Shown in pieces: positions 4,970-23,794 of a DNA stretch of 38,793 nucleotides (position 1 is the stretch's first letter; every line of letters begins with the position of its first letter). The DNA is from Jimgerdemannia flammicorona (taxonomy: Eukaryota), in assembly GCA_003990765.1 (NCBI GenBank), contig RBNJ01000155.1, forward strand, positions 1 through 38,793, in the 5' to 3' direction. Both the position numbers and the translations under genes were made by a program. The notes under the pieces are model-generated. The model saw only the letters and a program-made list of their open reading frames with translations, had not been told where the DNA came from and made no database searches.

Positions 4970-4970
4970 A

Positions 4971-4980: not shown

Positions 4981-5006
4981 AATAGATAGTCTTATCCCTG
5001 AGGCAT

Positions 5007-5444
5007 CTATTCAAACTCCCCGGTTTCAACCGTCTGTATGGTCTTATACTGTGCAATTTGCTGCATGACTGTTTTCCAATGATGTCTTCTTACTTTCTCA
5101 AAGTTGGTGGGGGTTACTCCTCTCAGGTGGTCCATCACTAGTTTATCTTCTCGGAATAACTTGTGGATCCTTTTGGCGATAGTAATCTGTGAGTAGGAGA
5201 GTTGGCACTTGGCAATCCAGTCCTCTTTGGTCTTTGCTGGATCCTGATTGAGCATCTGTCCAAGCTTGAAGTACTCTTGGAATTCTGCTTGGTATTGATA
5301 GGCTCTAAAGTGTGAGATCTGAGAGAGATGAGTCTGCACAATACTCTGAATATCCTCATAGTATGGCTCTATGGTCAGAGGCTCGGTGGTGTGCCATTGT
5401 CTTTCAATGGCTCTTTAGGCAGCACTAGTGATCTTGAGTGCCAT
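5007..5444 (-). pseudogene. Gypsy A accessory ORF3, unknown function (~145 codons, one internal TAA)
   Basis: ATG at 5444 lies just after the integrase stops and is in frame with track ORF 5007..5339. Motifs QEYFKLGQML and IAKRIHKLFR match the gypsy B LTR ORF. Confidence 0.75.
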
Positions 5445-5455
5445 CACAGTACTTT

Positions 5456-6650
5456 TATTACTGGCTATGATATTTCTTGAGTCAGTTTCGGTGAATGGTG
5501 GTCGGGATTATTGTGCCTGAGGGTTTTCATAGCCAAAAGGTGGTCCCTTTTATATTTTGCACAAGGTAAGGTCCTTCCCACTTGAGCTCCAGTTTTCGTG
5601 ACTATGAAACTTCTACCATATTCTGATACACTAGGACTTTGTCTCCTATCTTGATAATCTCCAAGGGCTTGTGGATCTTTTCTGTATTCCTCTGTTATAG
5701 TGTCTGCACCTTGGTTATGTAATCCTCAGCCTTCTTCCTGATTTGGTGTAGTCTCCATATTTCCATGTCCACATATTTCCATATAGCATCTCCATTGGAT
5801 GATAGGGTTCCTTGAGAACATTCTTCTCCAAACAGCATTTCTTGAGAGGTAAAGTGGGTGCTTTGTGATCGGATATCCTGGAGAGCAGATAATGCATTAG
5901 CAGATAGTGATCCCAGTTCTTGTAGTTATCACAGATCTTGGCGATAATATTCTTGAGGGTTTTGTTCATCCTTTCTACTTATCTGTTTCCTTGGGGGTGA
6001 TAGGCTGTGGTCTGAATGTACTAGATCTTGTACTTCTTGTAGAGAACCTCAAAGAGCTGGTTCACAAATTCTGTTCCTCTATCTGTAGTTACTTGTGTTG
6101 GGGTCTTGAACTGGCAGATGATTTCCTTGTGGAAGAAATTGGTGATTGACTGTGCATTGGCTTTCTTGAGAGGTCCTGCTTCTATCCACTTCGTAAAAAG
6201 GTCTACAATGACAATGATGTATCAGTTACCAGTCAGGGTCAAGGGTAGAGGGCTGATTACATCCATTGCTATATGGGCAAATGGTACTGGTTCTATGTGT
6301 GCTGATTCTGGTGCTTGATTCCGTTGGTCTTGTTTCTGTTTCTGGCATTTGTTGCATATCTTGACAAATTGTCTGATATCTTCCTCTATCCCTGGCCACC
6401 ATATTGTTCTTCTTGTCTTGTCATATGTATTTGTTCCTCCTAGATGGCCAAGTTTGTGTACTGATTTCATTGCTTGCTCCTTCTTATGTTCTGGTATGAC
6501 CAGTAGTTTTCCTTTCTTCAGTGTTTCTCCATCAGTTTTGAATTGTTTCTATGTCCTGTTGATAATCATTTGTGTCCATTCTTCCAGATGTTGGGGCATC
6601 TTTCGCTGTCCTAGATATGTGATAATTCTGTAGTAGAGCTCCTTATTTAT
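5456..6650 (-). pseudogene. Gypsy A integrase (HHCC, DDE core, GPF-type C-terminus, no chromodomain)
   Basis: HKLGHLGG...CNKCQ, MDVISPLP, VDLFTKW, NKTLKNI and IHRN.LKKY; several stops and frameshifts. Confidence 0.9.
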
Positions 6651-9600
6651 GATTGATTTGTTGGTTGGAGGCAGTTTGAGGTGTCCATGAGAGAGCATCT
6701 GCATTGGAATTCCATCTTCCAGGGCAGTGTATGATGGTCACATCATAGGCTTGTAATTTCATTATCCATCTGACATAGATTCCCTTAGGTTGTCCAGTTG
6801 TCAGTAGCCAGGTGAGAGCTGAGTGGTCTGTCTGGATAGTGAAGTGTCTTCTGGCCAAATAGTAGTGGAACTTTTCCACAGCCCAGATGACTGCAAGGCA
6901 TTCCAACTTGTAGGACTCGTATTCCTTTTCAGCCCCTCGGGTTCCATGGCTAAGATATGTAATGACATACTCTTTTTTGTCTTCTTTTTGAGCTAGGACT
7001 GCTCCTAGTCCTTGTATGCTTGCATCTGTCTGAAGGATAAATTCTTGGGTCCAATTGGGTCATCTGAGGATGGGTGCCTGAGTTAGTCTGATCTTGAGTT
7101 TGTCAAATGCTTTTTGTTGTCTGCCAGTCTACTGGAACTTGGTATCCTTCTTGTTGAGTTCGTAGATTGGACCTACGATGTTGGAGAATCCTCTAATGAA
7201 TCTGCAATAGTAGGAGGCAAGTCCCATGAAGGCTTGGGCTTCTGTAACAGTAGTGGGCCTTGGGTATGCTGCTACTGCTTGTATTTTGAGGGGGTCCATG
7301 TATGTTCCATCTCGATTGATAATATGACCAAGATAGGAGATCTCAATTTCTGCAAACTTGCACTTCTTGGGTTTGATATAAAGGCCATGTTGTCTTAGTT
7401 TCTCCATTATCTGCTGTATATGCTGCAGATATTCCTCAGGTGTCTTGCTATAGATGATTACATTATTGACATAGACCATCATCCATCTTCCCATATCATA
7501 GTGGAAGATTTTGTTCATCATTTGCTGAAAGCTTGCTGGTGTATTGCACATTCTGAATGGCATTCGTAGGTAGATATAGGTTCCGTCTGAGGTGATGAAG
7601 GCTGACTTTTCACTTGCTATCTCTGTGAGTCCGATTTGGTGAAATCCTGAGTATAAGTCCAAGGTGCTGTAGTACTCTGCTTCGTCTCCCAGTGTTATAA
7701 GGATGTCACTGATGAGCAGCAGTGGTTGGCGATCCTTCTTGGTAACTGCATTGAGCTTTCTGTAGTCGACACAGAGCCTTGGGGCAAATTCTCCAGGTTT
7801 GCTTTCTTTTTTCGGGGCTAGTACAACTGATGAAGACCAGGGGCTGCTGGCTTCTTTGATGATGCCAGCTTCTTCCATCTGCTTGATTTCTTCTCTAAGT
7901 CATTCTCGGTAGGCTGGCGGGACAGGTCTTGCCTTCTGATAAATGGTTCAGTGTCTCTGGTGTCTACCTCATGATAGTAGTATGGGGTCTTTTCCTTGAT
8001 ATCCTTGAAATCTGTGGCAAGGACATCCTCAAATTTGTAGAGTATTTTCTTGAGTTCCTCCTTAAGTGGGAATTCATCTTCAATGGTATAACTGTGCTTG
8101 CTTGTGTTTTCCTCCTTCTTATGCTCAAGTTCAGTGATCTTGGTGCTGGCGAATACTCCTCTTCCTATGGATCCAAATTCTTTCTTTCCTCTTTTTGTTT
8201 CCTCCAGATTCATGACTTCTATGATCCTTGGCTGTATGATTGGGAAGATCAACATCTGTGCCAATCAGTCCTTCTTCTTGACTGGAAATGGAATTGTAGG
8301 ATTGTGGTTCCTAGCAATGAGTAGAATTTCTTCAGTATAGTCTGAATCAATGACTCCTTCTTCAATTGTGATTTCACTTCTAGCCAGACTGCTTCTTGTC
8401 TTGAGAATCCTGACATGATCCCTTGGGATGGTCATCTTTAGTCCAGTTGCAAGTAGTGTGGTTATCTGGGGTTCAAGTACAGTTTCTTCTACTGTAGCGA
8501 TGTCCATTCTGGCTGCATTTTCTGACTTATATTCTGGTAAGACTACATCAGGGTGGATCTTTCGAATCTTGATCTTGATTTCTTCTTCATCATCACTGTC
8601 CTTCAGGAGGACTGGTGGTTCGTTGTCTTCCTTCTTCTCTTCTTCTCTGATCTGTTTTTCGAGAGCTTTCTGCCATCTTTCCTGGTAGATCTTCCTGGTT
8701 TCAATGGTGTACTGGTAGCAATTATTGACATGCTCCATACAGTACATCTTGATTCCATGAGGACAGACTCCTTGTGGAGCATAGCCTTCTGTGATCTTCT
8801 TGCACCATTCTTCTTCACTCATCCATCCAACTTTTTTCTTCTTTGGAATAGTCACCATATAAGCTTCCTTTTGCTCACTCTCTTCTTCCTCCATATCAGG
8901 CAGGACTCCTTTGTTGACATTGATGGGAATTCGTATCTTCTGTCCCCAGTAGGTGATCTGTATCTTCTAAGTATTGAGATCGATTACCGCCTTGGCCTTG
9001 TGAAGCCATTGATTACTGATGAGGATGTCATAGTTGGTGGCATTGGTTACAATTATATCTACTGGGATTATTGCTCCTCCGATCTTGATGGGAACATCTC
9101 GGATCTTTCTCAGAGGTGTGGCTCTTGTGCCATCAGTTGTGACAAATACTAGCTTAGTTGCTTCTTCCACATCCCAACCTAGGCAGTCTACTGCCTTCTT
9201 ACTGAGGAGACATCCTCCTACTCCCATGTCAATGATGGCTTCAAAGGTTCTATCTTCAATTTGGCATGTTGTATAAGCAGAGGTTTTGTGATTGTCCTCA
9301 CTTTCTTCTCCTGAGTCCTCTTGAACATTATTGGCCTCAGTTATCTTCTATCCTTGTTCCTTGGTTGTTTCAGCAAGTCCAAACCTCATTTGCTGTCTGA
9401 ATGTTGGGATTTCTGCGAGCTGACCAAAGGTTGCATTGACCTTTTGTTGACTGAGATCCTTGAAGATATCATACTTGAAGGTCTTGGTCTTGCAAAGCTT
9501 CTTTTCTTTTTCTCCTTTACTGGCTAGAGTGGTTCCTCAGATGATATCTTGAACTGCTTACTCCAGCTCGATATCTTGGTCCATCTCTTTGGCTTGGCTT

Positions 9601-10634
9601 TCTGTAGTGATTTCCATCTACTTTTCCACTGGGTTCTTCTTGGGTCTTCCTGGTGGTCTCTTGTAGAGTTCTTTGTGAGCATCCTTCTTGGTGGTCTGAG
9701 CAGAATAGGCCTCCCATTCCTCTTCATTGGATTCTCCAATTTCTTCAAAGGTGATTATATTGGCCTGCTCCTTGTTTCATATAGCATTGCTTGGTTGAGT
9801 CTTGCATTTGGTTTCACTCATACATTCATAGGAGTAGTGGCCTTCTTCTCTGCAGCTGTAGCAGGTACCTTTCTTCTTGTCTGAGGTGGCGGCAAACTTC
9901 TGAACAGGGTGGCAATCTCTTCCTCAGATTTCCTTTACCACATCTCCCAGGTGAGCAGTTATTTCAGCAAACCTTTTGGCAAGTTCCTCCATAGGGTCAC
10001 TGTTCTTTTGCTGCTCTGTAGCTTTTGGCTGAGGTGTGTTTTGATTGATCATTATGGTGGAGATCACACTGGTTGCCTTGGGTGCCTCGATTCTGACTCC
10101 TGTAACTCTCTCCATTGTATGATCTTATGGGTGTCTGGCTATCCAGTATTGCTGAGCATAGGTGACCTTCTGTGGCAGATCCAGAATCACTGGTGATGAG
10201 CAGATGGCCATGGCTATTTCTGGATGGACTCCTTTTATGAAGGTTGCTTCAGCTACTTGATCTTGGATAGCAGTAGCATAATCTGCAAGGATTATCTGAT
10301 ATCGGATTCTGATATAGCATGTGTTTGGATCCTCGCTCATTCCTTGGCATATTGTGTTGAGCTGATCCTTCAGGGCTTGCTTGATCTCGTCTGTGTAATA
10401 TGTATTTCAGAGCCAGGTCTTCTGTGCTGTCAGTATGGCATTGGCATCATTTCCTGCATGGGTTGCAGCTGTGAATGCTGCTCTGGCAGGGCCTCGTAGA
10501 CTGAAGGGCATGAGGGCTACTTGCTGTACTGCTGTTAGAGTCCTTACAGCAGCATACTGCTCGAAATCGTCAATGAAGGTGATGATTGATTCATCTGAGG
10601 TATATCCATGGAATACTGGTGGTCTCATATCCAT
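6643..10634 (-). pseudogene. Gypsy A gag-protease-dUTPase-RT-RNase H polyprotein, disrupted
   Basis: Gag MRPPVFHG; knuckle CYSCREEGHYSYEC (~9820-9870); protease IIDMGVGG; dUTPase RSSLA, GVIDSDY and RGKKEFGSIG; RT LCVDYRKLN and LDLYSGFHQI; RH ECLAVIWAV, TDHSAL and NADALS. Confidence 0.92.
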
Positions 10635-10727
10635 CTTATCTGAGTATTGGGGCTCGGTTTGTATAGTTGTTCAGGTAGTGGTGGTTGTTCGTTGTTCAGC
10701 TTGAAAGTGAGGGATTCGTCTTGAATC

Positions 10728-10745
10728 ACCAGCCAATGGGTACCA
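10728..10745 (-). promoter_or_regulatory. Primer-binding site of gypsy A
   Basis: TGGTACCCATTGGCTGGT starts 3 nt after the 5' LTR; cognate tRNA not identified. Confidence 0.75.
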
Positions 10746-10748
10746 AGT

Positions 10749-11280
10749 TGTAACATAGTGGACACTTACTCTTAAAAGTACATTGGATTTCTGTATCTTG
10801 GAAACTTGACTGTTCTGACTCTTGCAGAGTCTCTTGAAGTTGTAGGGGAGGGTGGGTGAGTTCGAAGTGTATCTGCCCACAGGCTTACTAGTTCCTTTGC
10901 TACATATCTCTTTGCTTTGAACTATTTCAATCTGAGGTTTATTTACTCGAAGATACTGGGATATTTATACAAGTTTGCTAGCTATGAGATGGCTACTGAG
11001 TTACATGGCTAAGTCATGAGTCATTTAGACAATGTCTAGAAATTTAGACAATGTCGAAATGCTATACTAAATCGGGGTGTTCGATTTGGATAATGTCTAA
11101 GAATTTAGACAATGTCGAAATACTATACTAAATTGGGGTGTTCAATTTGGATAATGTCTAAGAATTTAGACAATGTTGAAATTGAAGACTGCTAACTATA
11201 AGGTTATACTACTTTGGGACTGGGTGTGATCAAGTGTCTATTCTCTATTTCCTTCTTCCAAATTTGGCTGTACCGTCACA
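10749..11280 (-). repeat. 5' LTR of gypsy A (532 bp)
   Basis: Direct repeat of 4442-4969, differing mostly by transitions; adjacent to the PBS. Confidence 0.95.
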
Positions 11281-13185
11281 ATATATAAGACCTTTACATA
11301 TATACTTCTTATTAGTAAATAATAAAGCTCTGAAAAAAATTAAAAAATTCAATATAATTATAGAAAATAAAATAAAATATAGAATATAACTATATAATTA
11401 TAAATATATCAATAGTATATTTAACAATTTCTGAAGAAAAATAGTATATATCATCAGATAACTATACTCTATATATCTCAGTAGAATAGTATGGCTGAGT
11501 AATTTAACTAAATAATTATTGAAATAATATAGGTAATGATTTATATAATTAAATTGTCATATTTCTATTAGATCAAAGCTATCAATATAGTGATATATAT
11601 ATATATAATTAGTATAATTTTCAAGCCTTAAATAAGGAGTCTTATAATAATGATAAAAATTCTAGAAATACTGATTATATTTCTGAGGAGTTGTAGAGTA
11701 AAAAAAAAAATGTCTAATATATTTATTTATATATATTTAGATATAATATATATATTCTTAACAAAAGTAATATCATTTAATATAAGTTTGAGCTAAAGCT
11801 AATAAGTACATATTCTTTGAATATTCTGGTAAAGTATATGGGCTCTGAAATATTGAAAAATAGTATATAGTTATTTTATATAATATATAGTTCAAGGAAG
11901 AGATCAAGAAATCTTGCATAGATATATCTGTTAAAACCTCTACAATTATAGTTCAGTCAAAGCAACCATCATTCTCTCTTTAGTTGTTAAGAAAAATATT
12001 TTATAAATATAGCTATTTGAAAATTATCTACTAAATGAACTATAGTTACCTGAGCCAAAAAACAGAGATCAGAGATAAGAATGATGAACTCTTCAGTAAT
12101 AAAGAATTCATAAAGAAAAAGGACAAACAAAAGCAAAAGTACTCTAATATTTACTGAGAAATAGTTCAGATTTAGAAAGTTATTAAGATTAAAAAGTCTT
12201 AAAAGATAATATAAAAACTATATAAGCTAGATCAAAATATATAAATATATATATATTATAATATCTTCTGATGAGCCAAGTATCTACAATGATACTATAA
12301 CTGGTCCTAATAGAGAAAGATAAAAGTAAGCTATGGATAAAGAGTATAATTTACTCATAAAAAATAATATATAAGATTTTGTATCTCTTTTATCAAACCA
12401 CTAAGTAATCAGATCACATTGGGTCTATAAATCAAGTATAAGATTAATAGAAACATAAAATAATATAAAGCTCATTTCATTGCTAAGAGATATTTACAAA
12501 GTTATAATATAAATTATATATGATGAAACTTTCTCTTTAGTATTCAAGCTTACTTTACTAAGAATATTCCTTACAATCAGTATACTATATAATCTAAAAA
12601 TCCACCAAATAGATATTAAGATAGCCTTCTTAAATAGTGATATTGATATTAATTTATATATCTATCAACTTAAAGGATATGAACTATATAATAATCAGAA
12701 TAATCTTGTATGTAAATTATACAAAGAGTTATATAAAATTAGTAAGTAGTATATCTGTAGAACTGAAAAATTAATAATTATCTTCTTGATAATAGATTTC
12801 TATATTATAAAGTAGATAATTATATATATATTCAATACTATAATAATAAAGTAGCTTTTATAGATATATAGATAGATAATATAATTATTATTATATAAAG
12901 ATAAGCTCAATAAAGTTAAAGAAGCCTTATACTAAGAGTTTAAGATAATATATATAAGTGATATATTCTTATTTTTAGAGATATCTATTATATATAATAA
13001 AAATAAATATACTATATATCTCTTATAAATAATATATATCTAAATACTTCTCAAATATTTTAATATAAGTAAATATAAGTCTATTAGTATGTATATATAT
13101 ATCAATAAAGTTGAAAAAAAACCTGAGACTGATACTATACCAGAGTCTGCTAAGAATATCATCAATATTCCTTATTAGTAAGTAG

Positions 13186-14723
13186 TGTAATGGTGACCCC
13201 AGAATGATGACATCAGTATAGGAGATAGTCTTTCCTTATAAGCCACCAGATCAGAGCATAAGAAGATCATACAGTATATGAAATGAGCAATAATGGCCAA
13301 CTGTGAGTCATTGTGACCACAGTACAAGCATCCTGAAGAATATAAAAGAAGGATCAAGGAACTATAGTAGCAGCAACCAACAAGAACCACCAATCCCAAA
13401 ATAGCTCAAAGACTTACTACAAATGAAATGCCTGCTGCCTGCTAAACCTCAAGGTCAAGGAATCACCAAGGTATCTCAGTTGAGGAAAGGATGTTCCAAG
13501 ACATCAGAAGAGCCATGAGGACCCACTCAATAAGGACTCTGAGTATCAACCTGGATACTACAGATCCCTATCACTTTATCCTCTACTATTGTGAAATGGA
13601 AACAAGAATCACCATTACCACTGAATGCCTCCAAATGTGGCAGGAGTACAAAATAGGAAACCTCCTCTGCCAGGAGTTCCCACAGGCTAGCACTCAAGAG
13701 CTATAAGATGCCACTCCCATGGATATATATGAAATGAGGATAGCTAAGAAGATCTATCAGATCTTCAGACATGCATCATGGTTGATCCCCAACTTAGAGT
13801 ATGTTAGAGTCTCAGACTTCAGAGACCTGTCATCCCACCATATCAATGCACTAGAAGCCAGGGTAGCTACAGAAGCCCAGTCCACTATCACCCTCAATAG
13901 TGAAGAAGTAGAAGACTTCTGGCATCCCATCCTTCAGGACAACCCAGACCAATTCCTGCAAGGATTGATCTCAGTATTCCAAGACCCAAGCATCCAGGTT
14001 AGACCTCCCTAAGACCCCACATTTGTTTCTTATTTTGTGAAAAAGAACCTTATAAACTGGAGAGCTCCAGATCCCCTTATTCCCACTGCTGCTGAATGTG
14101 ATGATATCATTGGTGATGACGTCATCCTGTATGACATCAACATATGTGAAGCATGTGAATCATGTGATGATGAATTCACAGATCTCATCTCCTTCAGTGA
14201 TGATAATGATGATGAAGCCCCCATGATCCTGAACTTTCTACTCTAAGTTCTTTGTTACACTAAATAATGTCAGCATCAGTATTCTCATATAACACTGGAT
14301 AATGCCAGCACCGGCATTCTGAGGTGATACAAAATTGTTCCAATACTGGTATTCTGATATGACACTGAATTATATCAGTATCCTGAACCTGTACAACTAT
14401 TAGTGCCGACCCTGGAACTCAGTAGTTTTAGTTATTGGAATTTATATTTAGCTTTATATCTTAGCAACTGTTGAATTATATTTTGTATAGATACCTCTCT
14501 TATTTCCTCTGAAATAAAGTCAGTCAAGTTCAGTGCAATACATAATCCCTTGCAAGCAATCTAAGAGATAACAAGATAGTTAAAGATAAGAAGTTTGAGA
14601 ACTATAAGACCTTGGAAAGGTACTCCAATAAGAACTTGCTTATAACAAACTTGAGTTAGTCTAAGAGATATATCTTGAAGAGAATCTGATATATTTGAAG
14701 GACTCAGTGACTACTATGTGACA
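13186..14723 (+). repeat. 5' LTR of gypsy B (1538 bp), containing a 5'-truncated copy of ORF3
   Basis: Direct repeat of 20418-21958; track ORFs 13491..13706, 13719..14012 and 14037..14246 are all in one frame. Confidence 0.95.
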
Positions 14724-14726
14724 ACT

Positions 14727-14744
14727 TGGTACCCATTGACTGGT
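14727..14744 (+). promoter_or_regulatory. Primer-binding site of gypsy B
   Basis: TGGTACCCATTGACTGGT, 3 nt after the LTR; one transition away from the gypsy A PBS. Confidence 0.75.
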
Positions 14745-14843
14745 AATTCAAGATGAATCCCTTACTTTTAAGCTAAAAAACGAACAACCCCCACAACAAC
14801 TACCCTGACTACAAGAATCACCCCTGCAAGAATTCAAGATAAG

Positions 14844-17800
14844 ATGAAAATGCACCCCCCCACATTTTATGGATATATATACTACCGAAGAGTCAATCCT
14901 GACCTTCATTGAAGACTTTGAACAATTTGCCACCATACAAGCCCTTGGTGTAGATACTCAATTGGCCCTTCTACCAGTCAGCCTCAGAGGACCTGCCAGA
15001 GACAAGTTCAATGCAGCCACCATTGCTGATGCTGGTGCAGCCAAACTTGCCAACATGGAGGTCTTTCTCAGAACAATATATTATACCAAAGAGATCAAGC
15101 AAGCTCTCAAGGATCAACTCAATACCATCTGCCAGGGACTTAGTGAAGATTCCAACTCATTCTATAATCGAATCTGCCACCAGATTGTCTTGGCTGGCTA
15201 TGATGACCACCTCAAGGAACAAATAGCAGATTCAACCTTCCTCAAAGGAGTTCACCCTGAAATTGCCCTAGCAATCCAGTCTACCCCAGCTGTACTGACC
15301 CTTGATCAGAAAGTGGTCTTTATACAGAGATATTAGACTATCAGACATCCTGCTGAACACTTAATGGAGAAAATAACTGACATCAAGATGGAGCCATCAA
15401 AGCCAACTAGTATCTTACCTGCTACAGTTGTAAACAGACAACCAACCTCACCTACCCCCAAGACAACCAAAGCTGACCCAGTGGAGGAACTCGCCAAGCA
15501 GTTCACTAAGATGACTACACACCTTGGAGATGTTGTTAGAGAAGTCTGAAGTGCCAACAGGAGACCAGTGCAGAGATTTGCAGCTGCTACAGAAGAATGC
15601 AATATCACATGCTTCAGATATAGAGAAGAAGGCCACTATACAAAGAATTGCATGACTGAAACAAGACGCAAAGCCCAACTAAGTAATACTAGCAGAACCA
15701 GAGAACAAACCAATGCAGTAGTCATCGAGGAGATTGGTGACACTGATGATGAAGAATACTATAAGGAGCTTGAATTCTATCCTGCTACTGAAGGTACCAG
15801 AACCTGGTCCAAGCTCTATGACAAGAAGAGCAATAGCAAGCCAGTTGGAAGACCAAAAAAGACCCCAGCTGTCACTATTCAAAGCAAGATCCAACTCAAG
15901 GAGATTGATCAAGACATAGAGTTAGATGAAGCTATCTGCCAAATTATTGAAGGCACTACTCTAGTCTCAGGAGAAAGTGAAAGCAAGAAGGAACAGAAGC
16001 TGCGCAAGACCAAGATCCACCAGTATGATATCTACAAGGACCTCAAGGAACAGAAGGTCAATGCTACTTTTGGACAACTAGCTGAAGTCCCTGTCTTCAG
16101 ACAGCAGTTGAGAGTAGGACTTGCAACTACTGTCAAGAATCAAGAGTACAAGATTGTAGAAGCTCACAATGTACAGGAAGAATCTGAGAACTCAGGTGAA
16201 GAATCTGAAGACCAGCACAAGACATCAGCCTATACCCTATGTCAGATCGAAGACTGTATCTTTGATGTCATCATTGATACTGGTGCTGGGGGATGCCTCA
16301 TGAGCAAGAAGACAATTGACTGCCTAGGTTGGGATATTGAAGAGTCCACCAAGATGGTCTATGTCACAGCAGATGGTATACAAGCTACCCCCCTTGGCAA
16401 AATCCGAGAAGTCCCCATCAAGATAGGAGGAGCTACCATTCCAGTAAACATGATTGTTACAAGCACCACCAACTATGACATCCTTATTGGCAACCAATGG
16501 CTTTATAAGGCCAAGGCCATCATTGACCTCAATGCCCAGAAGATGCAGATCAACTATAAAGGAAGAAAGGTACAGGTCTCTATCAATGTCCACAAAGGAG
16601 TTCTACCAGACATGGAGGAAGGAGATGAAGAAGACACAGAGGTCTTCATGCACTCAGTGAACAAGAACAAGAACAAGACACCCAAGCTCACAGATGAGCA
16701 GTGGTATAACAAGATCATCAATGGCTATGCCTCTCAAGGAAGATGCCTCCATGGTACTAGGATGTACTGCTCTGAATACCTGAATGACTGCTGGTCCTGT
16801 ATCAGTGAAGTCAGGAAAATCCACCAACAGAAACATGAGTAAGAAGCCACTGAAGCAAAAAGGAAAGCCGAAGAAGATGACCAGCCCCCAGAGCTCCAAG
16901 CTGACAGTGATGATGAGTAGGAATAAGAATCAGACATCACCCTCAAGGTCAAGAAGTTTCACCCTGAAGCCAAGATCCCAGAATATAAGACTAAAGGAGC
17001 CATAGGAATGGACCTTGCCAGTATTCAAGATGCTACCCTTGAACCACAGACCACCACCCTACTTGGCACTGGAATTGGAGTCAAGCTGCCAGAGAACCAT
17101 GCTGGAATTATCAAGACAAGGAGCAGTCTGGCCAAAAGTGAAATCTCAGTTGAAGGAGGAGTAATTGACCCAGATTACACTGGCAAGATCTTCCTCATAG
17201 TCAGAAATCACAACCACACCACCCCCTTCGAAGTCAAGAAGCATGACAGGATTGGCCAGATGCTGATCTATGAAATTAAGAAACTCAAGATCATTGAAGC
17301 CATTGAACTCATCAAGACCAAGAGAGGAGAACAAGGCTTTGAATCTACTGGAAGAGGAGCCTATGCCACCACCAAGATTACCAAACTTGAACACAAGAAA
17401 GAAAAGGACCAGAATAAGCACACATATACCATTGGAGAAACCTTTCCCCTGGAGGAACAACTTCTCAAGATTCTGCACCAGAATGAAGGAGTACTTGCTA
17501 TAGACTTCAGGAATATCCACAATCAAGAACCCAAGTACTACCATGAAGTTGACACTGGAGTTACCAAGCCCATCTATCAGAAAGCCAGACCCATACCACC
17601 TGCCTACAGAGAATGGCTGTGAGCAGAACTCAAGGAAATGGAAGAAGCCAGAATCATCAAGCAAGCTATCAGCCCCTGGGTCTCACCCATTGTCCTTGCT
17701 CTAAAGAAAGAAAGCAAACCTGGAGAGTTCATGCCAAGACTCTATATTGATTACAGGAAGCTCAATGCTATCACCAAGAAGGATAGACAGCTCTTGCCAA

Positions 17801-18864
17801 ATATTCAAGAGATCCTTACCACCCTTGGAAGTAAAGCCAAATACTACACCACCTTAGATCTGTTCTCAGGCTTCCATCAGATTGGTCTCACACAAGATAC
17901 CAGTGAGAAATCAGCCTTCATCACACCTGATGCCACCTATATCTACCTGTGAATACCATTTGGAATGTGCAATGCCCCAGCAAGCTTCCAGCAAATGATA
18001 AACAGAGTCTTCAGTAATGAGATTGGAAAATGGCTCTTTGTCTATGTTGATGATGTGATCATCTTCAGCAACACTGCACAGGAACATATCAATCACATAC
18101 AGCTAGCCCTCAAGAAGCTCAAAGAGCATGACCTCTACATCAAGCCCAAGAAATACAAGTTTGCGGCTCAAGAAATTGCCTACCTAGGACACCTCATCAA
18201 CCAGACTGGAATCTACACAGACCCCATGAAGATTGAGGCTGTTGCAGCCTACCTGAGACCCAGAACAACTACAGAAGTCCATGCCTTCCTTGGACTGGCC
18301 AGCTACTACAGAAGATTTATCAAAGGATATTCCAATATTGCAGCACCTATCTACGAGCTACTGAAGAAGGAGACCAAATTCGAATAGACCAAGGAGCACC
18401 AAGAAACCTTCAATGAACTCAAGACTAGGTTGACCCAAGCACCTATCCTCAGAAGACCAGACTGGAACCTAGAATTCATCCTGCAGACAGATGTGAGTAC
18501 TAGAGCAGTCCTAGCTCAGAAGAAAGATGGACATGAATATGTCATCTCCTATATAAGCCAAGGTACCCATGGAGCAGAACAGAACTATGAGTCATGCAAG
18601 CTTGAATGCTTAGCAGTAGTCTGGGCAGTAGACAAGTTCCACTACTACCTAGCTGGGAAACATTTCATTATTCAAACAGACCACTCTGCTCTTGCCTGGC
18701 TATTCCACACCCTGAACTCCAAAGAAATATATACCAGATGGATCTACAGGCTGCAAGAGTATGACTGTACTGTCAAGCATTGCTCAGGAAAGACCAACAC
18801 CAATGCCGATATACTCTCAAGAACACTCTGAAACACCCCCATCAAGACCATTCAACATAAATAA
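14844..18864 (+). pseudogene. Gypsy B gag-protease-dUTPase-RT-RNase H polyprotein (single frame, interrupted by point stops)
   Basis: Track ORFs 14869, 15364, 15568, 17008, 17638, 17965 and 18430 share one frame. Motifs: CFRYREEGHYTKNC, IIDTGAGG, dUTPase motifs, VYVDDVIIFS, KLECLAVVWAV, TDHSAL, NADILSR. Confidence 0.93.
16945..17360 (+). pseudogene. dUTPase domain within gypsy B pol (homolog at ~8160-8570 minus in gypsy A)
   Basis: All five trimeric dUTPase motifs in order: GMDLAS, RSSLA, GGVIDPDYTG, DRIGQML, RGEQGFESTG. Confidence 0.92.
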
Positions 18865-20104
18865 GGAGCTCTACTATGGATTAATCAGCTACCTTAGGCA
18901 GTGGAAGATGCCCAACCACCTCGAACCTTGGACAATCACTATTATCAACCAGACTTGGAAACAGTTTGAACTAGACAATACTATACTCAGAAAAGGAGGA
19001 AAGCTAGTAATACCTGAACACAAGAAGTATTAAGTAATGAAGGAAGTACACAAGCAAGGACACTTAGGAGGAACTAACATATATGACAAGGCAAGAAGAA
19101 CCATGTGGTGGCCCAAGATGGAAGAAGACCTGTGCCAATTTGTCAAAGGGTGTGATAAGTGCCAAAAACAGAAACAAGATCAGCAAGACCAGGCACCTGA
19201 GTCATCAAGAATTGAGCCTATCCCTTTCTACCACATTGCAATGAATATCATTGGACTGCTACCAGTAATACTATCAGGAAACTGCTATATTATAGTTATT
19301 GTAGACCTCTTCACCAAATGGATAGAGGCAGGAGTATTACAAGAAGCCAATGTCCTCTCTATAGCTGACTTCCTGCACTGAGAAATCATCTGCTGCTATA
19401 AGACACCAAAGCAAATCACAACAGACTATGGAACAGAATTTGTCAATGAATTCCACGAGATAATATATCAGAAATACAAGATCCAGTACATCAAGACCAC
19501 AGTATACCACCCTTAAGGAAATGGACAGACAGAGAGAACCAACAAGACCCTCAAGAACATCCTAGCGAAGATCTCAGAGATATATGAGAATTGGGATAAC
19601 TATCTCCCAACTGCCCTCTCTGTCCTATGAGATATATGGTCACAGAGCACACACTTTACCCCAAGAGAGCTGCTCTTCAGAGAAGAAGATTCTGATGGAA
19701 CCTCAGCCACAAATCTAGATCTAACTTGGAGATAGGTTGATGCAGAAATCTGGAGACTACACCAAATCAGGAAGAAGGCTGAAGATTATATCACCAAGTC
19801 ACAAGCACTGACAAGGAAGAATGCAGAAAAGAATCACAAGGCCCTAGAACCCATCCAAATCAGAGAAAAGGTTCTACTGTATCGAAATATAGTAGAAGCC
19901 TCATGGTTATGAAAACTGGAACCCAAATGGGAAGGACTCTTCTACATGCAAGATATCAAGAGAACCACCTTTTGGCTTAGAAAAATCTCAGGGACTATAC
20001 TGCCTACTACAGTACATAGGAACAGACTCAAGAAGTACCATGAACCTATATAAGAGAAGCAAAATGTAATGACTACCTGTGAGGTTCTAGTCTGTGAATC
20101 ATAA
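18857..20104 (+). pseudogene. Gypsy B integrase, +1 frame relative to RT-RH
   Basis: HKQGHLGG...CDKCQ, VDLFTKW, TDYGTEF, YHP*GNGQTERTNKTL, KLEPKWEGLF, VHRNRLKKY; apparent end at TAA 20102-20104. Confidence 0.9.
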
Positions 20105-20108
20105 CAGC

Positions 20109-21481
20109 ATGTCCTGTGACCAGCAGGCTATCTGTCTGGACCATTCTCTAAGGGATACAGCACTGATAACTACTCATCTATGAGACTTTCAAAGTCAGAG
20201 AAGTTTGAACCATCAACTGATTGGTCAAGATCAGAATCAGGCCCTTGCTCTATATGAAGGGAGTGATCCTTCACCATCATACCAAAATACAAAGGGAAGA
20301 TGCCAGCCCATAAATACCACTTTTCGACCCCTTGCCAGAGGTTATGGGATCAGCAAATTTTTCAGGACTAGACCAATGAATAAGGATGCTCAGGAAGATC
20401 CTTATTCAGGAGGAAGATGTAACAGTGACCCCAGAATGATAACATCAGCACAGGAGACAGCCTTTCCTTACAAGCCATCAGATCAGAGTATAACAAGATC
20501 ATACAGCATATGTATGAAATGAGTAATGATGACCAACTGTGAGTCATTGTGACCACAGTACAAGCATCCTGAAGAATATAAAAGAAGGATCAAGAAACTG
20601 CAGTAGTAGTAACCAACAAGAACCACTAATTCCAAAATAGCTCAAAGACTTACTACAAACGAAATGCCTGCTGCCCACCAAACCTCAAGGTCAAGGAATC
20701 ACCAAGGTATCTCAGTTGAGAAAGGATGTTCTAAGACATCAGAAGAGCCATGAGGACCTGCTCAACAAGGACTTCGAGTGTTAACCTGGGTACTGCAGAT
20801 CTCTATCACTTTATCCTCTACCGCTGTAAAATGGAAACAAGGATCACTATTGCCACTGAATGTCTCCAAATGTGGCAGGAGTATGAAATAGGAAACCTCC
20901 TCTACTGGGAGTTCCCACAGGCCAGCACTTAAGAGCTACAAGATGCCACTCCTATAAATATATGTGAAACAAGGACAGCTAAGAAGATCTATCAGATCTT
21001 CAGGCATGCACCATGATCGATTCTCAACTTGGAGTATGTTAGAGTCTCAGACTTCAGAGATCTGTTATCCTGCCATATCAATGCACTAGAAGCTAGGGTG
21101 GCTACAGAAGCCCAGTCCACTATCACCCTCAACAATGAAGAAGTAGAAAACTTCTGGCATCCCATCCTTCAGAACAACCCAGACCAATTCCTGCAAGGAT
21201 TGATCTCAGTATTCCAAGACTCAAGCATCCAGGTTAGACCTCCCCAAGACCCCACATTTGTTCCTTATTTTGTGAAAGAGAACCTCATAGACTGGAGAGC
21301 TCCAGATCTCCTTATTCCCACTGCCGCTGAACGTGATGATATCATCGGTGATGATGTCTTCTCATGTGATATCGACATATACAAAGCACATGAATTGTGT
21401 GATGACAAATTCACAGATCTTATCTCCTTCAGTGATGATGATGATGATGAAGCCTCTATGATCCTGAACTTTCTGCTCTAA
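20109..21481 (+). pseudogene. Gypsy B accessory ORF3 spanning the PPT and U3 of the 3' LTR (~457 codons reconstructed)
   Basis: ATG 4 nt after the integrase stop. Track ORF 20205..20522 crosses the PPT/LTR junction in this frame. It continues into 20750..20932 and 21029..21481 after a 1-nt deletion that the 5' LTR lacks. Internal stops fit C->T or G->A changes. Confidence 0.7.
20407..20417 (+). promoter_or_regulatory. Polypurine tract of gypsy B
   Basis: CAGGAGGAAGA directly before TGTAAC of the 3' LTR. Confidence 0.85.
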
Positions 21482-21958
21482 GTTCTATATTATACTGAAT
21501 AATGCCAGCACTGGTATTCTCATGTAATACTGGATAATGCTAGCACCAGCATTCTGAGGTGATGCGAAATTGTTCCAACACTAGTATTCTGATGTTATAC
21601 TGAATTATACCAGTATCCTGAACCTGTATAACCATCAGTGCCGACCCTGGAACTCAGTAGTTTTAGTTATTGAAATTTATATTTAGCTTTATATCTTAGC
21701 AACTATTGAATTATATTTTGTATAAATACCCCTCTTATTTCCTCTGAAATAAAGTCAGTCAAGTTCAGTACAATATACAATCCCTTGCAAGCAATCTAAG
21801 AGATAACAAGACAGTTAAAGATAAGAAGTTTGAGGACTATAAGATCTTGGGAAGGCACTCCAATAAGAACTTACTTATAACAAACTTGAGTTAGTCTAAG
21901 AGATATACCTTGAAGAGAATCTGGCATATTTGAAGGACTTAGCAACCACTATATGACA
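20418..21958 (+). repeat. 3' LTR of gypsy B (1541 bp)
   Basis: TGTAACAGTG...ATGACA; ~35-bp degenerate tandem repeats (~21490-21620), TATAAATA (~21721) and AATAAA (~21748) lie downstream of the ORF3 stop. Confidence 0.95.
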
Positions 21959-22599
21959 GTAGTTAGATCACTTATATATCTTATATTAAGAATGAGATCT
22001 TATATATTATATTATATAATTTAAATGAGATAGTATAATACTCCTTCTACTATATATAAAAATTTACATTGATTAGTAATTGAGAGGATTTTCAGATATA
22101 TTAAAAGTATAGTATATTATAAACTTACTCTCAGCAGATTGAGTAAGAGTAATAGTAAGAATAGTATATTTCTATCTGATATATATAATGTCAATTAAGC
22201 TGAATACTTAAATGATCACTACTTTATAATCAGATATCTCTTTTATATTGATAAAAATAACAATAAAGTTATTTTATAGCAAATATACAAGTATTGTTTA
22301 TAGAAGTTATTTAGCTATACTAGTTATTAAAAGTACTCAGTTTTAATCAGAAATAGTATTATATACTTATTCTTTAAGATAACAGATCAATGATTACTAT
22401 GACAAAAAACTCAGTATATTATTCAAAAATAAAATATATCAATATATAATATTATTATATAAGAGAGTATATAGAGAATGAGATCATATGTTTAAAATAC
22501 ATTCTAGTAGAGTATATGATTGTAGATTTGCTTATTAAAGTCCTTTTAAGACTAAAATTTAAGCAATATACTTAAGAAATAAGTTTTATAGAGAACTAT

Positions 22600-23794
22600 T
22601 ATAATAATATCTCTGAAACCAATAATATCAGAATTCAGAAGACCGCTTTGACTTTGCAAGTCACTAGTTATAAGTTATAACTCAACTATAACTCATCTTG
22701 ATCAGAAGATAATTTTATCTGAACTCATAATAACTTATAATGAGCCCAATAATATACTACTCTAAATCAGATAACTCTACCCACTAAACCAAAAAAGAAG
22801 ACTCTCAAGATATAAAAGAAGTATCAAGAGAAGAAGTACAAAACATCAAACTATGAATAAGAGACTTACTACTAAAAAAAATTACTACTATTTACCAAAT
22901 AGTAAGGTTAAGAAGCCACTCTAGTCTATTAGTTCAAGAATGAATATTCTCTGATATTTGTAGAGCAATAAAGTTATATATAAAAAGAACTTCTAGTCTG
23001 AACCTCTATATAAAGAACTCCTATTACTATACTCTTAGCTACTAAGAAATAGAGATAAGAATTATCACTACTGCTGAGTATCTTTGGATATAATAAGAAT
23101 ATAAGATAGAATATCATCTCTACTAAGAATTCATATAAGCCAGCTCTTAAGAAATTACAGATACCATATATATGAATAAGTATGAACAGAAATTAACCAA
23201 AAGAGTCTACCAGATCTTTAGGTATATATTCTGGATCATTCTCAACCTGGAATATATCAAAGTTTCTGATATTCAAAATGACAAGTTATCATATAGACCA
23301 TCTTAAAGAAATAATTGCAGAAGAGACCCAATCTACTATTATAGTCAAGAGTAATAAAGTTCATGACCTTTAGAATCCCATCTTAGAACTAGTTTGTCTA
23401 TGGTCTGATTTTACTATTTCAAGGCCTTCTCTTAAAAGTCTGCTACTCTCAGAATTCCACAGATATTTCCTACTTTATAGATAACAATACTATTAACTAA
23501 AGTCCTCAAGAGTAGAATAACTATATACCCTTTGGTGATATTATTAACAATGATATCACTCCTCTAAACAACTTGGAGAATGATAGCAACATACTTATCC
23601 TTTTAGTAATTATGAGTTACAACTAATTATCTAGTCTTATATATGTATAGTCTAAAAACTATATAAATATTTCCTGATCTGTAATAAATAAATCTCAGTC
23701 AATTGGGTTTACCAACTTAAGTTCTGAAATACAAGGAAGTTGAGTGTAAGAACTTTGAGAAAAGACTCCAAGAGTTGAAGAATTACTCTTATCA
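22600..23794 (+). mobile_element. Older solo LTR of a gypsy-B-related family carrying a decayed ORF3 domain
   Basis: Start TATAATAATATC resembles TGTAATGGTGAC after G->A/C->T changes; ends in CA; flanked by CTAT at 22596-22599 and 23795-23798. Encodes KRVYQIFRYIFWIILNLEYIKVSD (~23200-23270). Confidence 0.75.

What the first reader, a model, noticed from the sequence alone, without database searches (positions are those of the whole stretch)
20109..21481. Accessory gene reading through the PPT and ~1 kb into the LTR of a Ty3/gypsy element (nef/sag-like layout)
Seen: an ATG 4 nt after the integrase stop opens a frame that crosses the PPT and LTR boundary and ends at MILNFLL*, just upstream of the LTR tandem repeats and TATA. 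Each LTR has one private indel (4 nt missing in the 5' LTR near 13275; 1 nt missing in the 3' LTR near 20720). Taking the longer allele at both sites gives one ~457-codon frame, and the remaining stops fit C->T/G->A changes. The protein has a helical-looking core (QEYKIGNLL...IAKKIYQIFR...NLEYVRVSDF) and an acidic tail, with no obvious signal peptide or TM segment, so it does not look like env. Known: HIV nef and MMTV sag overlap U3, whereas typical gypsy LTRs are non-coding. Inference: an uncharacterised element-encoded regulator, such as a transactivator or an anti-silencing factor.
Basis: partly seen in the sequence, partly recalled or inferred. Interest (0 to 1): 0.88.

Follow-up and report, generated by a model that had tools for sequence, protein, structure and literature searches.

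The report
Conserved accessory gene inside retrotransposon LTR

Summary
The element is real. It is a TSD-flanked Ty3/gypsy retrotransposon (13186-21958; PR-dUTPase-RT-RNaseH-IN) with 1.54-kb LTRs.

Each LTR holds the same open frame ending MILNFLL*. All six stops and the 1-nt deletion inside it are private to one LTR, so the copy that integrated carried it intact.

Intact relatives of 138-342 aa (26-80% identity) exist in environmental assemblies. Full-length ones start at the same Met-Pro, which matches window ATG 20664 / 13428.

One distant relative with DNA in hand (L001) has an in-frame stop 54 nt before its ATG. It also has the same TATAAAAG box 80-87 nt upstream and about 28 conserved bases before the ATG.

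So the conserved gene is about 272 codons (20664-21481) and lies wholly inside the LTR. It is not a 457-codon frame crossing the PPT: three stops between 20520 and 20606 are shared by both LTRs.

The protein has no Pfam, PDB or fold match and no hydrophobic segment. It has a basic N-terminus, a helical core and an acidic tail.

A sister element in the window has short LTRs. It carries a weak homologue of the core between integrase and PPT.

Expression and function are inferred, not shown.

The parts
13182..13185 (+). Target-site duplication, left copy (GTAG)
   Evidence: Same 4 bases at 21959-21962
13186..14723 (+). 5' LTR (1538 bp, TG..CA)
   Evidence: Aligned to the 3' LTR: 153 differences in 1536 columns, 149 of them transitions
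13341..13348 (+). TATAAAAG box upstream of the LTR ORF (5' LTR copy)
   Evidence: Identical box in the 3' LTR and in L001, 80-87 nt before the ATG
13428..14246 (+). LTR ORF, 5' LTR copy (272 codons, no frameshift, 3 private stops at 13443, 13704, 14010)
   Evidence: tblastn with P0005 covers residues 1-271 at 70% identity. Stops listed; the other LTR reads sense codons at those places
14724..14750 (+). Primer-binding-site region after the 5' LTR
   Evidence: ACTTGGTACCCATTGACTGG... is nearly identical in the sister element E2. It was not matched to a tRNA
14869..20053 (+). gag-pol (PR, dUTPase, RT, RNase H, integrase), with a frame change near 18990 and a few stops
   Evidence: Pfam hits RVP_2, dUTPase (3.8e-26), RVT_1 (4e-29), RT_RNaseH, Integrase_H2C2 and rve. 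No chromodomain hit
20109..20522 (+). Post-integrase 'spacer' frame that crosses the PPT and the first 105 nt of the LTR (137 codons, 1 internal stop at 20181, closed by TGA 20520)
   Evidence: Unusually open. No relative found. Weak collinear similarity to the E2 post-integrase ORF (BLASTP E 0.014). Its coding status is unresolved
20408..20417 (+). Polypurine tract (AGGAGGAAGA)
   Evidence: Directly 5' of the LTR. The 24-nt PPT/LTR junction is 92% identical to that of E2
20418..21958 (+). 3' LTR (1541 bp)
20577..20584 (+). TATAAAAG box, 87 nt before the ORF start; no other ATG in between
   Evidence: conserved in L001
20664..21481 (+). LTR ORF, 3' LTR copy (the conserved gene; broken here by a 1-nt deletion after 20719 and stops at 20732, 20930, 21014)
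   Evidence: Relatives at 61-79% identity and more distant ones. The stops and the deletion are absent from the 5' LTR and from soil-metagenome copies
21721..21753 (+). Downstream TATAAATA (21721) and AATAAA (21748): candidate promoter and poly(A) signals of the genomic RNA
   Evidence: Motif positions. E2 has a similar box at a similar distance from its LTR end (about 215 against 237 nt; the 15-nt match is not significant on its own)
21959..21962 (+). Target-site duplication, right copy (GTAG)
22881..23584 (+). Third, heavily decayed AT-rich copy of the LTR ORF, with TATAAAAG at 22811
   Evidence: tblastn with P0005: 41% over residues 1-137, then weaker pieces
4441..11281 (-). Sister element E2 (PR-dUTPase-RT-RH-IN) with 534-bp LTRs that lack the ORF
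   Evidence: 68% nt identity to E1 14683-20041. LTRs 4441-4970 and 10748-11281. Pfam. No tblastn hit of the family in E2
4971..5444 (-). E2 post-integrase ORF (158 codons read with 3 X), a weak homologue of the LTR-ORF core
   Evidence: hhalign against the family profile: prob 72%, E 3.5e-5, 79 columns. Score 37.9 against a maximum of 21.8 in 200 shuffles. BLASTP E 0.003

Best explanation
The finding is an accessory gene of about 272 codons that lies entirely inside the long U3 part of the LTR of a dUTPase-bearing Ty3/gypsy retrotransposon. The host is most probably a soil fungus.

Shown:
- The gene starts at the Met-Pro codon pair at 20664 (13428 in the 5' LTR) and ends at 21481 (14246).
- It was intact when this copy integrated.
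- It belongs to a small orphan protein family whose members keep open frames down to 26-28% identity.

Inferred:
- The gene has its own promoter, the conserved TATAAAAG 80-87 nt upstream. It uses the LTR's downstream poly(A) signal, so every LTR could give a monocistronic mRNA of about 1.1-1.2 kb. The genomic RNA would start at the second TATA (21721).
- The product is a soluble, probably nuclear protein with a basic N-terminus, a helical core and an acidic, hydrophobic-studded tail. It would act in trans on the element's own expression or RNA handling, as a transactivator or Rev/CERV-like factor.

The frame that opens at 20109 and crosses the PPT is a separate, unresolved feature. It may be a small ORF3 that corresponds in position to the sister element's post-integrase ORF.
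For: Anatomy:
- LTRs, PPT, PBS region, TSD and the PR-dUTPase-RT-RH-IN domain order are all present.

Intact at integration:
- All 6 stops and the 1-nt deletion inside 20664-21481 / 13428-14246 are private to one LTR.
- Soil-metagenome copies read sense codons at 20930 and 21016, and carry the extra base after 20719.

Protein family:
- 4 relatives at 61-79% identity were found among 286 candidates.
- 5 representatives were found in 1.84 billion proteins, including members at 26-49% identity, all 138-342 aa.

Start codon:
- P0005, P0009, P0010 and the L001 ORF begin at the aligned Met-Pro.
- L001 has an in-frame TGA 54 nt before its ATG.
- Three upstream stops are shared by both LTRs.

Own promoter:
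- TATAAAAG lies 87 nt (window) and 80 nt (L001) before the ATG.
- About 28 nt before the ATG are conserved although the proteins are only 40-47% identical.
- There is no other ATG between the box and the start.

ORF lies in U3:
- The sister element E2 shares the PPT/LTR start, the LTR end and the PBS region. It has a TATA-like box at a similar distance from its LTR end as the downstream TATAAATA of E1.

Protein character:
- pI 4.5-4.9; maximum 19-residue hydropathy 0.59-1.05.
- Net +5 to +8 in the first 20-40 residues of the closest relatives (P0005, P0004).
- Tail windows of -4 to -9.
- Both AF2 models give helices plus a short hairpin.
Against: - No RNA evidence of any kind: no RNA run was listed, so the transcription start, splicing and translation are untested.
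- The TATA box is an AT-rich octamer. It also occurs twice elsewhere in the window (3609, 32623), so its conservation in one distant relative is suggestive only.
- Only one relative's DNA (L001, a 1535-bp contig) could be read. I could not show that L001 or the other relatives sit in LTRs of gypsy elements.
- No dN/dS could be computed, because only protein sequences of the relatives were available. The two LTRs diverged after insertion without selection.
- Structure models are of low confidence (pLDDT 45 and 42). Nothing ties the protein to any known regulator, so the functional part rests on composition and analogy.
- The spacer frame 20109-20522 is more open than chance. Some coding across the PPT therefore cannot be excluded.
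Confidence: 0.6

Rival explanations
1. One reading: one accessory ORF of about 457 codons starts at ATG 20109 just after integrase, reads through the PPT and about 1 kb into the LTR (nef-like overlap), and is broken here only by hypermutation.
For: - After allowing for the 1-nt deletion, the spacer frame and the LTR ORF are in the same frame.
- The spacer frame has only 1 stop in 137 codons.
Against: - Stops at 20520, 20550 and 20604 stand in both LTRs, whereas every stop in the conserved part is private to one LTR.
- Two of the three shared stops are TGA.
- The full-length relatives begin at the Met-Pro matching 20664.
- L001 has an in-frame stop and the TATA box inside the supposed coding stretch.
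- No protein of 172-550 aa, 600-2000 aa (weak evidence) or any length among representatives is longer than 342 aa.
- The 137-codon upstream part has no relative.
- None of the 40 best-supported differences from soil copies falls on the three shared stops. This is weak evidence, because 331 further differences were not shown.
Confidence: 0.05
2. The same conserved gene inside U3, but with no promoter of its own. It would be translated from a spliced subgenomic RNA made from the genomic promoter, as I recall for MMTV sag and as reported for Cer1 CERV. The TATAAAAG conservation would be incidental.
For: - Accessory genes at the 3' end of retroelements are commonly expressed by splicing. The Cer1 CERV abstract (PMC10309623) is one example.
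- The sister element's homologous ORF starts 13 nt after the integrase stop, with no room for a promoter.
- The conserved bases before the ATG could be a splice-acceptor or translation context.
Against: - A canonical TATA box is conserved at the same distance in a relative whose protein is only 40-47% identical.
- No AG stands immediately before the window's ATG.
- No RNA data exist either way.
Confidence: 0.25
3. The upstream TATAAAAG is the promoter of the genomic RNA. R would then be over 1 kb long, and the ORF would be the first cistron of the full-length RNA, ahead of gag.
For: - It is the stronger TATA consensus of the two.
- The ORF would be 5'-proximal and easily translated.
- Ty1 gag is recalled to start inside the 5' LTR, so coding sequence in R-U5 has precedent (from memory).
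Against: - E2 shares the LTR termini but has a 534-bp LTR without the ORF. It keeps a TATA-like box about 215 nt from its LTR end, matching the position of E1's downstream TATAAATA (237 nt).
- An R of about 1.1 kb, with a 272-codon ORF before gag, would be highly unusual.
Confidence: 0.08
4. The ORF is a host gene or gene fragment recently picked up by the LTR, or it is a chance open frame, and has no role for the element.
For: - The family is tiny and has no annotated relatives.
- LTR retrotransposons do capture foreign ORFs. The bdelloid elements of PMC5408684 are an example (passages seen).
Against: - Whole-library profile search found only 5 representatives, all short stand-alone ORFs on contigs of 0.7-4.8 kb. 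No larger cellular protein was found.
- Divergent members keep the same start, upstream box and open frame.
- A related element carries a weak homologue at the post-integrase position, which argues for long association with this element lineage.
- An intact frame of 272 codons is far beyond chance, given about 7.9 stops per 137 codons in off-frames.
Confidence: 0.05

Closest known systems
MMTV sag (superantigen ORF in the U3 of the MMTV LTR; recalled, not checked in a paper here)
   Same: - A complete ORF of about 270-320 codons lies wholly inside an unusually long U3 (an LTR of 1.3-1.5 kb).
- The ORF is therefore duplicated at both ends of the integrated element.
   Different: - No sequence or fold relation was detected.
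- Sag is recalled to be a membrane glycoprotein, whereas this protein has no hydrophobic segment.
- The host is not a vertebrate, and the element is a Ty3/gypsy retrotransposon, not a betaretrovirus.
Foamy-virus Tas/Bet and HIV nef (3' accessory ORFs overlapping U3; recalled)
   Same: - A regulatory or accessory gene sits at the 3' end and overlaps LTR sequence.
- Tas is recalled to have an acidic activation domain and its own internal promoter. This matches the inferred own promoter and acidic tail here.
   Different: - Those ORFs begin upstream of the PPT and only overlap U3. The conserved ORF here begins 246 nt inside the LTR.
- No sequence similarity was found.
Cer1 CERV of C. elegans (PMC10309623; abstract seen)
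   Same: An orphan regulatory protein encoded by a Ty3/gypsy-type LTR retrotransposon in addition to gag and pol.
   Different: - CERV is made from a spliced mRNA and is needed for genomic RNA export. Neither expression nor function is known here.
- No similarity was detected.
dUTPase-bearing fungal gypsy elements (PosPlaTy3-5 of Postia, Phanerochaete elements, Tuber Tmt1; PMC2864245 passages) and bdelloid Juno/Vesta/TelKA (PMC5408684 passages)
   Same: - dUTPase lies between PR and RT.
- Some fungal elements are drawn with an 'additional ORF of unknown function', and bdelloid elements carry diverse ORF3s.
   Different: - Tmt1 is described as a chromodomain element (PMC12581995 passages), and no chromodomain was found here.
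- None of the passages I saw places an ORF inside the LTR. The figures and supplements of these papers were not seen.
Sister element E2 in the same window (4441-11281, minus strand)
   Same: - 68% nt identity over the internal region.
- The same PPT/LTR start, LTR end and PBS region, and the same domain order.
- It carries a weak homologue of the ORF core.
   Different: - Its LTR is 534 bp and holds no ORF.
- Its homologous ORF (about 145 codons) lies between integrase and the PPT, that is, in the internal region.
Rice Retrosat2 ORF0 (PMC3485330; passages seen)
   Same: An orphan extra ORF in a Ty3/gypsy element with very long LTRs; it evolves faster than pol.
   Different: ORF0 lies upstream of gag-pol in the internal region, not in the LTR. 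The host is a plant, and the sequences are unrelated.

Membership tests
Ty3/gypsy (Metaviridae) LTR retrotransposon | Direct LTRs with TG..CA ends, flanked by a short target-site duplication | tested here: met
   LTRs 13186-14723 and 20418-21958; TSD GTAG on both sides
Ty3/gypsy (Metaviridae) LTR retrotransposon | pol domain order PR-RT-RNaseH-IN | tested here: met
   Pfam RVP_2, RVT_1, RT_RNaseH, Integrase_H2C2 and rve in that order, with dUTPase between PR and RT
Ty3/gypsy (Metaviridae) LTR retrotransposon | PPT before the 3' LTR and a tRNA primer-binding site after the 5' LTR | tested here: inconclusive
   PPT AGGAGGAAGA is present. The PBS-like TTGGTACCCATTGACTGG is conserved with E2 but was not matched to a tRNA
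Chromoviruses / Tmt1 clade of Tuberaceae | Chromodomain at the integrase C-terminus | tested here: not met
   No chromo hit in any frame of 14724-20422 at E 0.01 or better. Integrase ends ...LKKYHEPI*
dUTPase-bearing gypsy elements | dUTPase domain within pol | tested here: met
   PF00692, E 3.8e-26 in E1 and 3.8e-18 in E2
sag-like layout (ORF wholly in U3) | The ORF starts and ends between the LTR 5' end and the genomic transcription start | tested here: inconclusive
   The ORF occupies LTR positions 247-1064, upstream of TATAAATA at LTR position 1304. The transcription start itself was not mapped
MMTV Sag protein family | Sequence similarity and a membrane anchor | tested here: not met
   No Pfam family at E 1 or better apart from a sub-threshold ATG5_HBR hit. 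Maximum hydropathy 0.59-1.05
nef-like layout (ORF starts upstream of the PPT and overlaps U3) | A continuous conserved frame across the PPT | tested here: not met
   Three shared stops lie between the PPT-crossing frame and the conserved ORF. Relatives start inside the LTR-homologous sequence
env / env-like ORF3 | Signal peptide and transmembrane segment | tested here: not met
   No 19-residue window exceeds 1.05 on the Kyte-Doolittle scale in 5 family members
Transcriptional transactivator (Tas/Tax/VP16-like in function) | Nuclear localisation, binding to the element's own LTR, and activation of transcription | not testable with these tools
   Only the composition is compatible: a basic N-terminus and an acidic tail

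The most novel reading that the evidence does not exclude
A lineage of fungal dUTPase-bearing gypsy elements owns a dedicated regulatory gene that has moved between two positions. In the sister family it sits in the 'env slot' between integrase and the PPT. Here it sits in the U3 of the LTR, where it has acquired its own TATA promoter. Every LTR, solo LTRs included, would then be an autonomous transcription unit. Each would make a trans-acting factor that switches on, or protects from silencing, all copies of the family. That would be a Tas/Tax-like positive-feedback circuit in a retrotransposon, with the LTR doubling as a gene.
Probability: 0.2. Interest if true: 0.8.

Novelty: new variant of a known kind. 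Interest (0 to 1): 0.6.

Why it matters
LTRs of retrotransposons are normally treated as non-coding control regions. A complete, conserved gene inside U3 is known to me only from a few vertebrate retroviruses.

If it is confirmed, several things follow:
- LTR and solo-LTR annotation pipelines would be discarding a real gene family.
- Solo LTRs would not be inert, because each would carry a promoter plus an ORF.
- Fungal retrotransposons would have retrovirus-style regulatory proteins, giving a handle on how such elements reach very high copy number despite methylation or RIP-type defence.
- The pair of sister elements in this window gives a natural comparison, ORF in the internal region against ORF in U3, for asking how LTR boundaries and accessory genes co-evolve.

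Tried and rejected
- Whole genome: none is held, so no genomic consensus or copy census was possible.
- Pfam on three translations of the ORF region and on 11 family members: only a sub-threshold ATG5_HBR hit (E 0.09-0.12, below the cut-off), which I rejected.
- PDB sequence profile search: 0 hits at E 5 or better.
- ESM Atlas: best feature score 0.83 and TM 0.33 or less, both below the tool's own bar.
- AF2 on two family members with 11-row alignments: pLDDT 45.1 and 41.6.
- Search for longer or fused forms (600-2000 aa): none among 8000 candidates; weak evidence.
- Spacer ORF 20109-20519: no candidate relative; no similarity to the 5'-open frame of L001; the family profile matches it only over the 18 residues it shares with the ORF start.
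- Derivation of the ORF from gag: hhalign E 0.93, rejected.
- First metagenome-contig scan with the family alignment: 243 pattern matches, none confirmed. The second scan gave one locus.
- Sequencing runs: 13 rows from 9 studies hold parts of the element, and no RNA holder is listed. Expression could therefore not be examined.
- Laid contigs are short unitigs of about 110-200 nt, so no contig bridges integrase to the ORF.
- A 33-nt direct repeat in L001 (1311 nt apart, 82% identical) gave no clear reading.
- Purine/pyrimidine alignment of the flanks to the element gave long low-quality alignments. I trust it only over 22860-23560.
- Rfam: no family in the window.
- Earlier findings of this scan: none by place, sequence or words.
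- Literature on ORFs inside retrotransposon LTRs: six phrases gave 6 papers, none relevant by listing. A broader search listed 15 of 223 papers. Truffle/gypsy terms gave 5 papers. None of the listings or passages I read describes one.
- The Tmt1 paper (PubMed id 17972080) is not held, and the figures and supplements of PMC2864245 were not seen. A prior description there cannot be excluded.
Full report
**The element**

The window holds a full-length LTR retrotransposon on the + strand, which I call E1.
- Its LTRs are 13186-14723 and 20418-21958. BLASTN gives 89.6% identity over 1563 columns; the alignment is.
- They start TG and end CA, and are flanked by the same four bases GTAG at 13182-13185 and 21959-21962.
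- A purine run, AGGAGGAAGA (20408-20417), precedes the 3' LTR.
- A PBS-like TTGGTACCCATTGACTGG follows the 5' LTR.
- Pfam on X-read-through translations of the internal region gives aspartyl protease, dUTPase (E 3.8e-26), RVT_1 (4e-29), RNase H, Integrase_H2C2 and rve, in that order. There is a frame change near 18990 and no chromodomain.
- The two LTRs differ at 153 of 1536 aligned positions, and 149 of these are transitions, mostly in CpA and CpG contexts.
- The flanks are AT-rich (GC 0.12-0.29) with CpG observed/expected of 0-0.4 and RIP-type indices. A 24.5-27 kb island has normal CpG.
- Together with the literature on dUTPase-bearing gypsy elements in fungi (PMC2864245, passages), this points to a fungal host. 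The host was not identified and no genome is held.

**Checking the observation**

The frame does end MILNFLL* at 21479-21481 / 14244-14246.

The stops split into two classes (read against the alignment).
- Inside 20664-21481 the 3' LTR has stops at 20732, 20930 and 21014. The 5' LTR has stops at 13443, 13704 and 14010.
- Each of these six is private to one LTR, and the other LTR reads a sense codon at that place.
- Upstream, three stops stand at homologous places in both LTRs: 20520/13284 (TGA), 20550/13314 (TGA) and 20604/13368 (TAG).
- Both LTRs are copied from one template at integration. The inserted copy therefore had an intact frame from 20664 to 21481, but not from 20109.

Soil-metagenome contigs of the same family, laid at 85% likeness or more, agree for the conserved part (2172, 442, 281 and 186 contigs in four runs).
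- Nearly all read another letter at 20930 and at 21016.
- Some carry an extra base after 20719. Loose ends at 20719 show the same, with a sense codon at 20732.
- None of the 40 best-supported differences falls on the three shared stops. However, 331 further differences were not shown, so this is weak evidence.

A smaller correction concerns the integrase stop. In the integrase frame the first stop is 20051-20053 (...LKKYHEPI*). That is where nucleotide homology to the sister element ends (20041). ATG 20109 is therefore 55 nt, not 4 nt, after the integrase stop.

**The ORF is a conserved gene**

- The X-read-through translation of the 5' LTR copy found 4 proteins among 286 candidates: 174-271 aa, 61-79% identity, E 3.6e-58 to 3.4e-119.
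- A profile of these, run against 1.84 billion representatives with no length limit, found 5 proteins of 138-342 aa. They include members at 41-47% (P0009, P0010) and 28% (P0011) identity to P0005.
- Each cluster has 1-2 members, on contigs of 720-4848 bp from JGI/IMG and ENA.
- All are stand-alone open frames. The alignment shows conserved blocks: WxEYEI, AKKIHQxFRH, a PILQDNPDQ(F/W)LQGL-type block, WR(A/S)P, and (D/N)LIxF followed by acidic runs.
- No form of 600-2000 aa was found (weak evidence).
- Inside the window, tblastn finds the family at three places only: the two LTRs and a third, heavily decayed copy at 22881-23584.

**Where the gene starts**

- P0005 (MPAARQTS...), P0009 (MPALRTNH...) and P0010 (MPPIRNNC...) begin at the same aligned Met-Pro. 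This corresponds to ATG 20664 in the 3' LTR and 13428 in the 5' LTR.
- A second metagenome scan gave one relative with DNA, L001, a 1535-bp contig.
- L001 carries an intact 291-codon ORF (376-1251) that starts MPALRTNHH. It has an in-frame TGA 54 nt upstream of its ATG.
- L001 has TATAAAAG 80 nt before the ATG, and the window has the same octamer 87 nt before it in both LTRs (20577, 13341).
- About 28 nt directly before the ATG are nearly identical (AAAGACTTAC[C/T]ACAAAC..ATGCCTGC), although the proteins are only 40-47% identical.
- No other ATG lies between the box and the start in the 3' LTR.

This is what I would expect of a promoter and 5' UTR belonging to the ORF itself. It rests on one distant relative and an AT-rich motif, so I rate it as suggestive.

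**The upstream 137 codons**

The frame from 20109 to the TGA at 20520 has 1 stop. The other two frames have 11 and 7. Only 0.39% of 2326 off-frame windows in pol, and 0.12% of 5000 shuffles, do as well. This is more than chance.

On the other hand:
- It has no relative among proteins of 75-240 aa.
- It has no Pfam hit.
- It has no similarity to the 5'-open frame of L001.

Its status is open. It may be a small ORF3 or a decayed remnant of one. It is separated from the conserved gene by the three shared stops and by the TATA box.

**The sister element**

On the minus strand lies E2 (4441-11281).
- It is 68% identical to E1 over 14683-20041 and has the same PR-dUTPase-RT-RH-IN order.
- Its LTRs are only 534 bp (39 mismatches).
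- E1 and E2 share the PPT/LTR-start junction (24 nt, 92%, E 4e-5), the LTR 3' end and the PBS region. The LTR interiors do not align.
- E2's LTR has no copy of the ORF.
- E2 has a TATA-like box about 215 nt from its LTR end. E1's downstream TATAAATA (21721) lies 237 nt from its LTR end. The 15-nt match between them is not significant by itself.

This is my reason for placing the genomic promoter at the downstream box, and hence the ORF in U3.

E2 also has an open stretch right after its integrase (5444 to 4971, read with 3 X).
- It matches the core of the family profile: hhalign prob 72%, E 3.5e-5, 79 columns.
- BLASTP against P0004 gives E 0.003.
- The hhalign score of 37.9 was reached by 0 of 200 shuffles (maximum 21.8), and the reversed sequence scored 15.4.
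- An E1 gag control scored E 0.93.
- E1's own spacer frame aligns weakly and collinearly with this E2 ORF (BLASTP E 0.014).

So the accessory gene, or a paralogue of it, seems to be an old property of this element lineage. It lies in the internal region in E2 and in U3 in E1. How it came to differ was not resolved. It is not a simple PPT shift, because the PPT and LTR start are homologous in the two elements.

**What the protein looks like**

- No Pfam family and no PDB sequence relative at E 5 or better.
- No Atlas look-alike above the tool's bar.
- Two AF2 models of low confidence, pLDDT 45.1 and 41.6. They agree only on helices across the first two thirds, a short hairpin and an unstructured tail.
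- Foldseek gave nothing (best E 2.9).
- Five members have pI 4.5-4.9 and a maximum 19-residue hydropathy of 0.59-1.05, so there is no membrane segment.
- In the closest relatives (P0005, P0004) the first 20-40 residues carry a net +5 to +8. Tail windows carry -4 to -9 per 20 residues.

It is therefore not env-like. A basic N-terminus with an acidic, hydrophobic-studded tail is the usual look of nuclear regulators and activation domains. This is inference from composition, not a test.

**How it most likely works**

Shown:
- A conserved gene of about 272 codons lies wholly inside the LTR, and is therefore present twice per element and once per solo LTR.

Inferred, in order of my confidence:
1. 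It lies in U3, upstream of the genomic start.
2. It is transcribed from its own TATA box and ends at the LTR's poly(A) signal. Alternatively it reaches ribosomes through a spliced subgenomic RNA.
3. Its product acts in trans on the family's transcription or RNA handling.

My odds:
- Structural reading (start at 20664, separate from the PPT-crossing frame, real gene): about 0.85.
- Own promoter: about 0.45, against about 0.25 for splicing.
- Regulator function: about 0.3.

**Comparison with what is known**

- The closest layouts are retroviral and are recalled from memory. MMTV sag is a whole ORF in a U3 of about 1.3 kb. Foamy-virus Tas/Bet and HIV nef are 3' accessory ORFs overlapping U3.
- Among retrotransposons, extra ORFs are known, but in the passages and abstracts I saw they lie in the internal region. 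Examples are bdelloid ORF3s (PMC5408684, passages), rice Retrosat2 ORF0 (PMC3485330, passages) and Cer1 CERV (PMC10309623, abstract).
- Fungal 'additional ORFs' are only named in a figure legend (PMC2864245).
- My searches for an ORF inside a retrotransposon LTR found none.
- The Tmt1 paper is not held, and figures and supplements were not seen. Prior description cannot be excluded.

**Verdict**

The LTR really carries an uncharacterised, conserved, non-env accessory gene in a sag-like layout. It is about 272 codons with its own start inside the LTR, not a 457-codon frame reading through the PPT. I rate it a new variant of a known kind, with interest 0.6.

Noticed in passing
window 4441-11281 (minus strand): A second, related dUTPase-bearing gypsy element (E2) with 534-bp LTRs (39 mismatches). 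It shares the PPT/LTR termini and PBS region with the element under study, but has no ORF in its LTR.
   Followed up: yes
window 22811-23584 (+): A third, strongly decayed AT-rich copy of the LTR ORF with its TATAAAAG box, about 0.9 kb downstream of the 3' LTR. It is probably a remnant LTR of an older copy, and its boundaries were not resolved.
   Followed up: partly
window 32739-38793 (+): G-rich (GC 0.54-0.59, GC skew 0.37-0.51) non-LTR retrotransposon-like region. It has an RVT_1 reverse transcriptase (E 3.4e-25) running off the window end, and two related upstream ORF copies (direct repeat 33264-33563 / 34856-35155, 78%).
   Followed up: partly
window 1-4400, 11300-13180, 22000-24000, 27000-33000: AT-rich blocks (GC 0.12-0.34). 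In the strongly decayed ones CpG observed/expected is about 0 and TpA/ApT is above 1, which looks like heavily RIP- or deamination-decayed repeats. The two gypsy elements are only mildly affected.
   Followed up: partly
window 24500-27200: An island of GC 0.52 with normal CpG (observed/expected 0.87-0.97). It has no Pfam domain in six frames and no Rfam family, and is followed by long A runs near 27500. It may be unique host sequence of unknown content.
   Followed up: partly
window 21349-21417: The acidic-tail coding stretch of the LTR ORF has almost no cover from soil-metagenome copies at 85% likeness (depth 0-1.7, against hundreds on either side). This fits the hypervariable tail seen in the protein alignment.
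   Followed up: no
L001 170-202 and 1481-1513: A 33-nt direct repeat (82% identical) lying 1311 nt apart, on either side of the ORF in the metagenome contig. Its meaning is unknown.
   Followed up: no
window 3770-4023 / 32287-32540 and 27894-28049 / 29574-29729: Further dispersed direct repeats (72-76% identity) in the AT-rich blocks, probably remnants of other repeat families.
   Followed up: no
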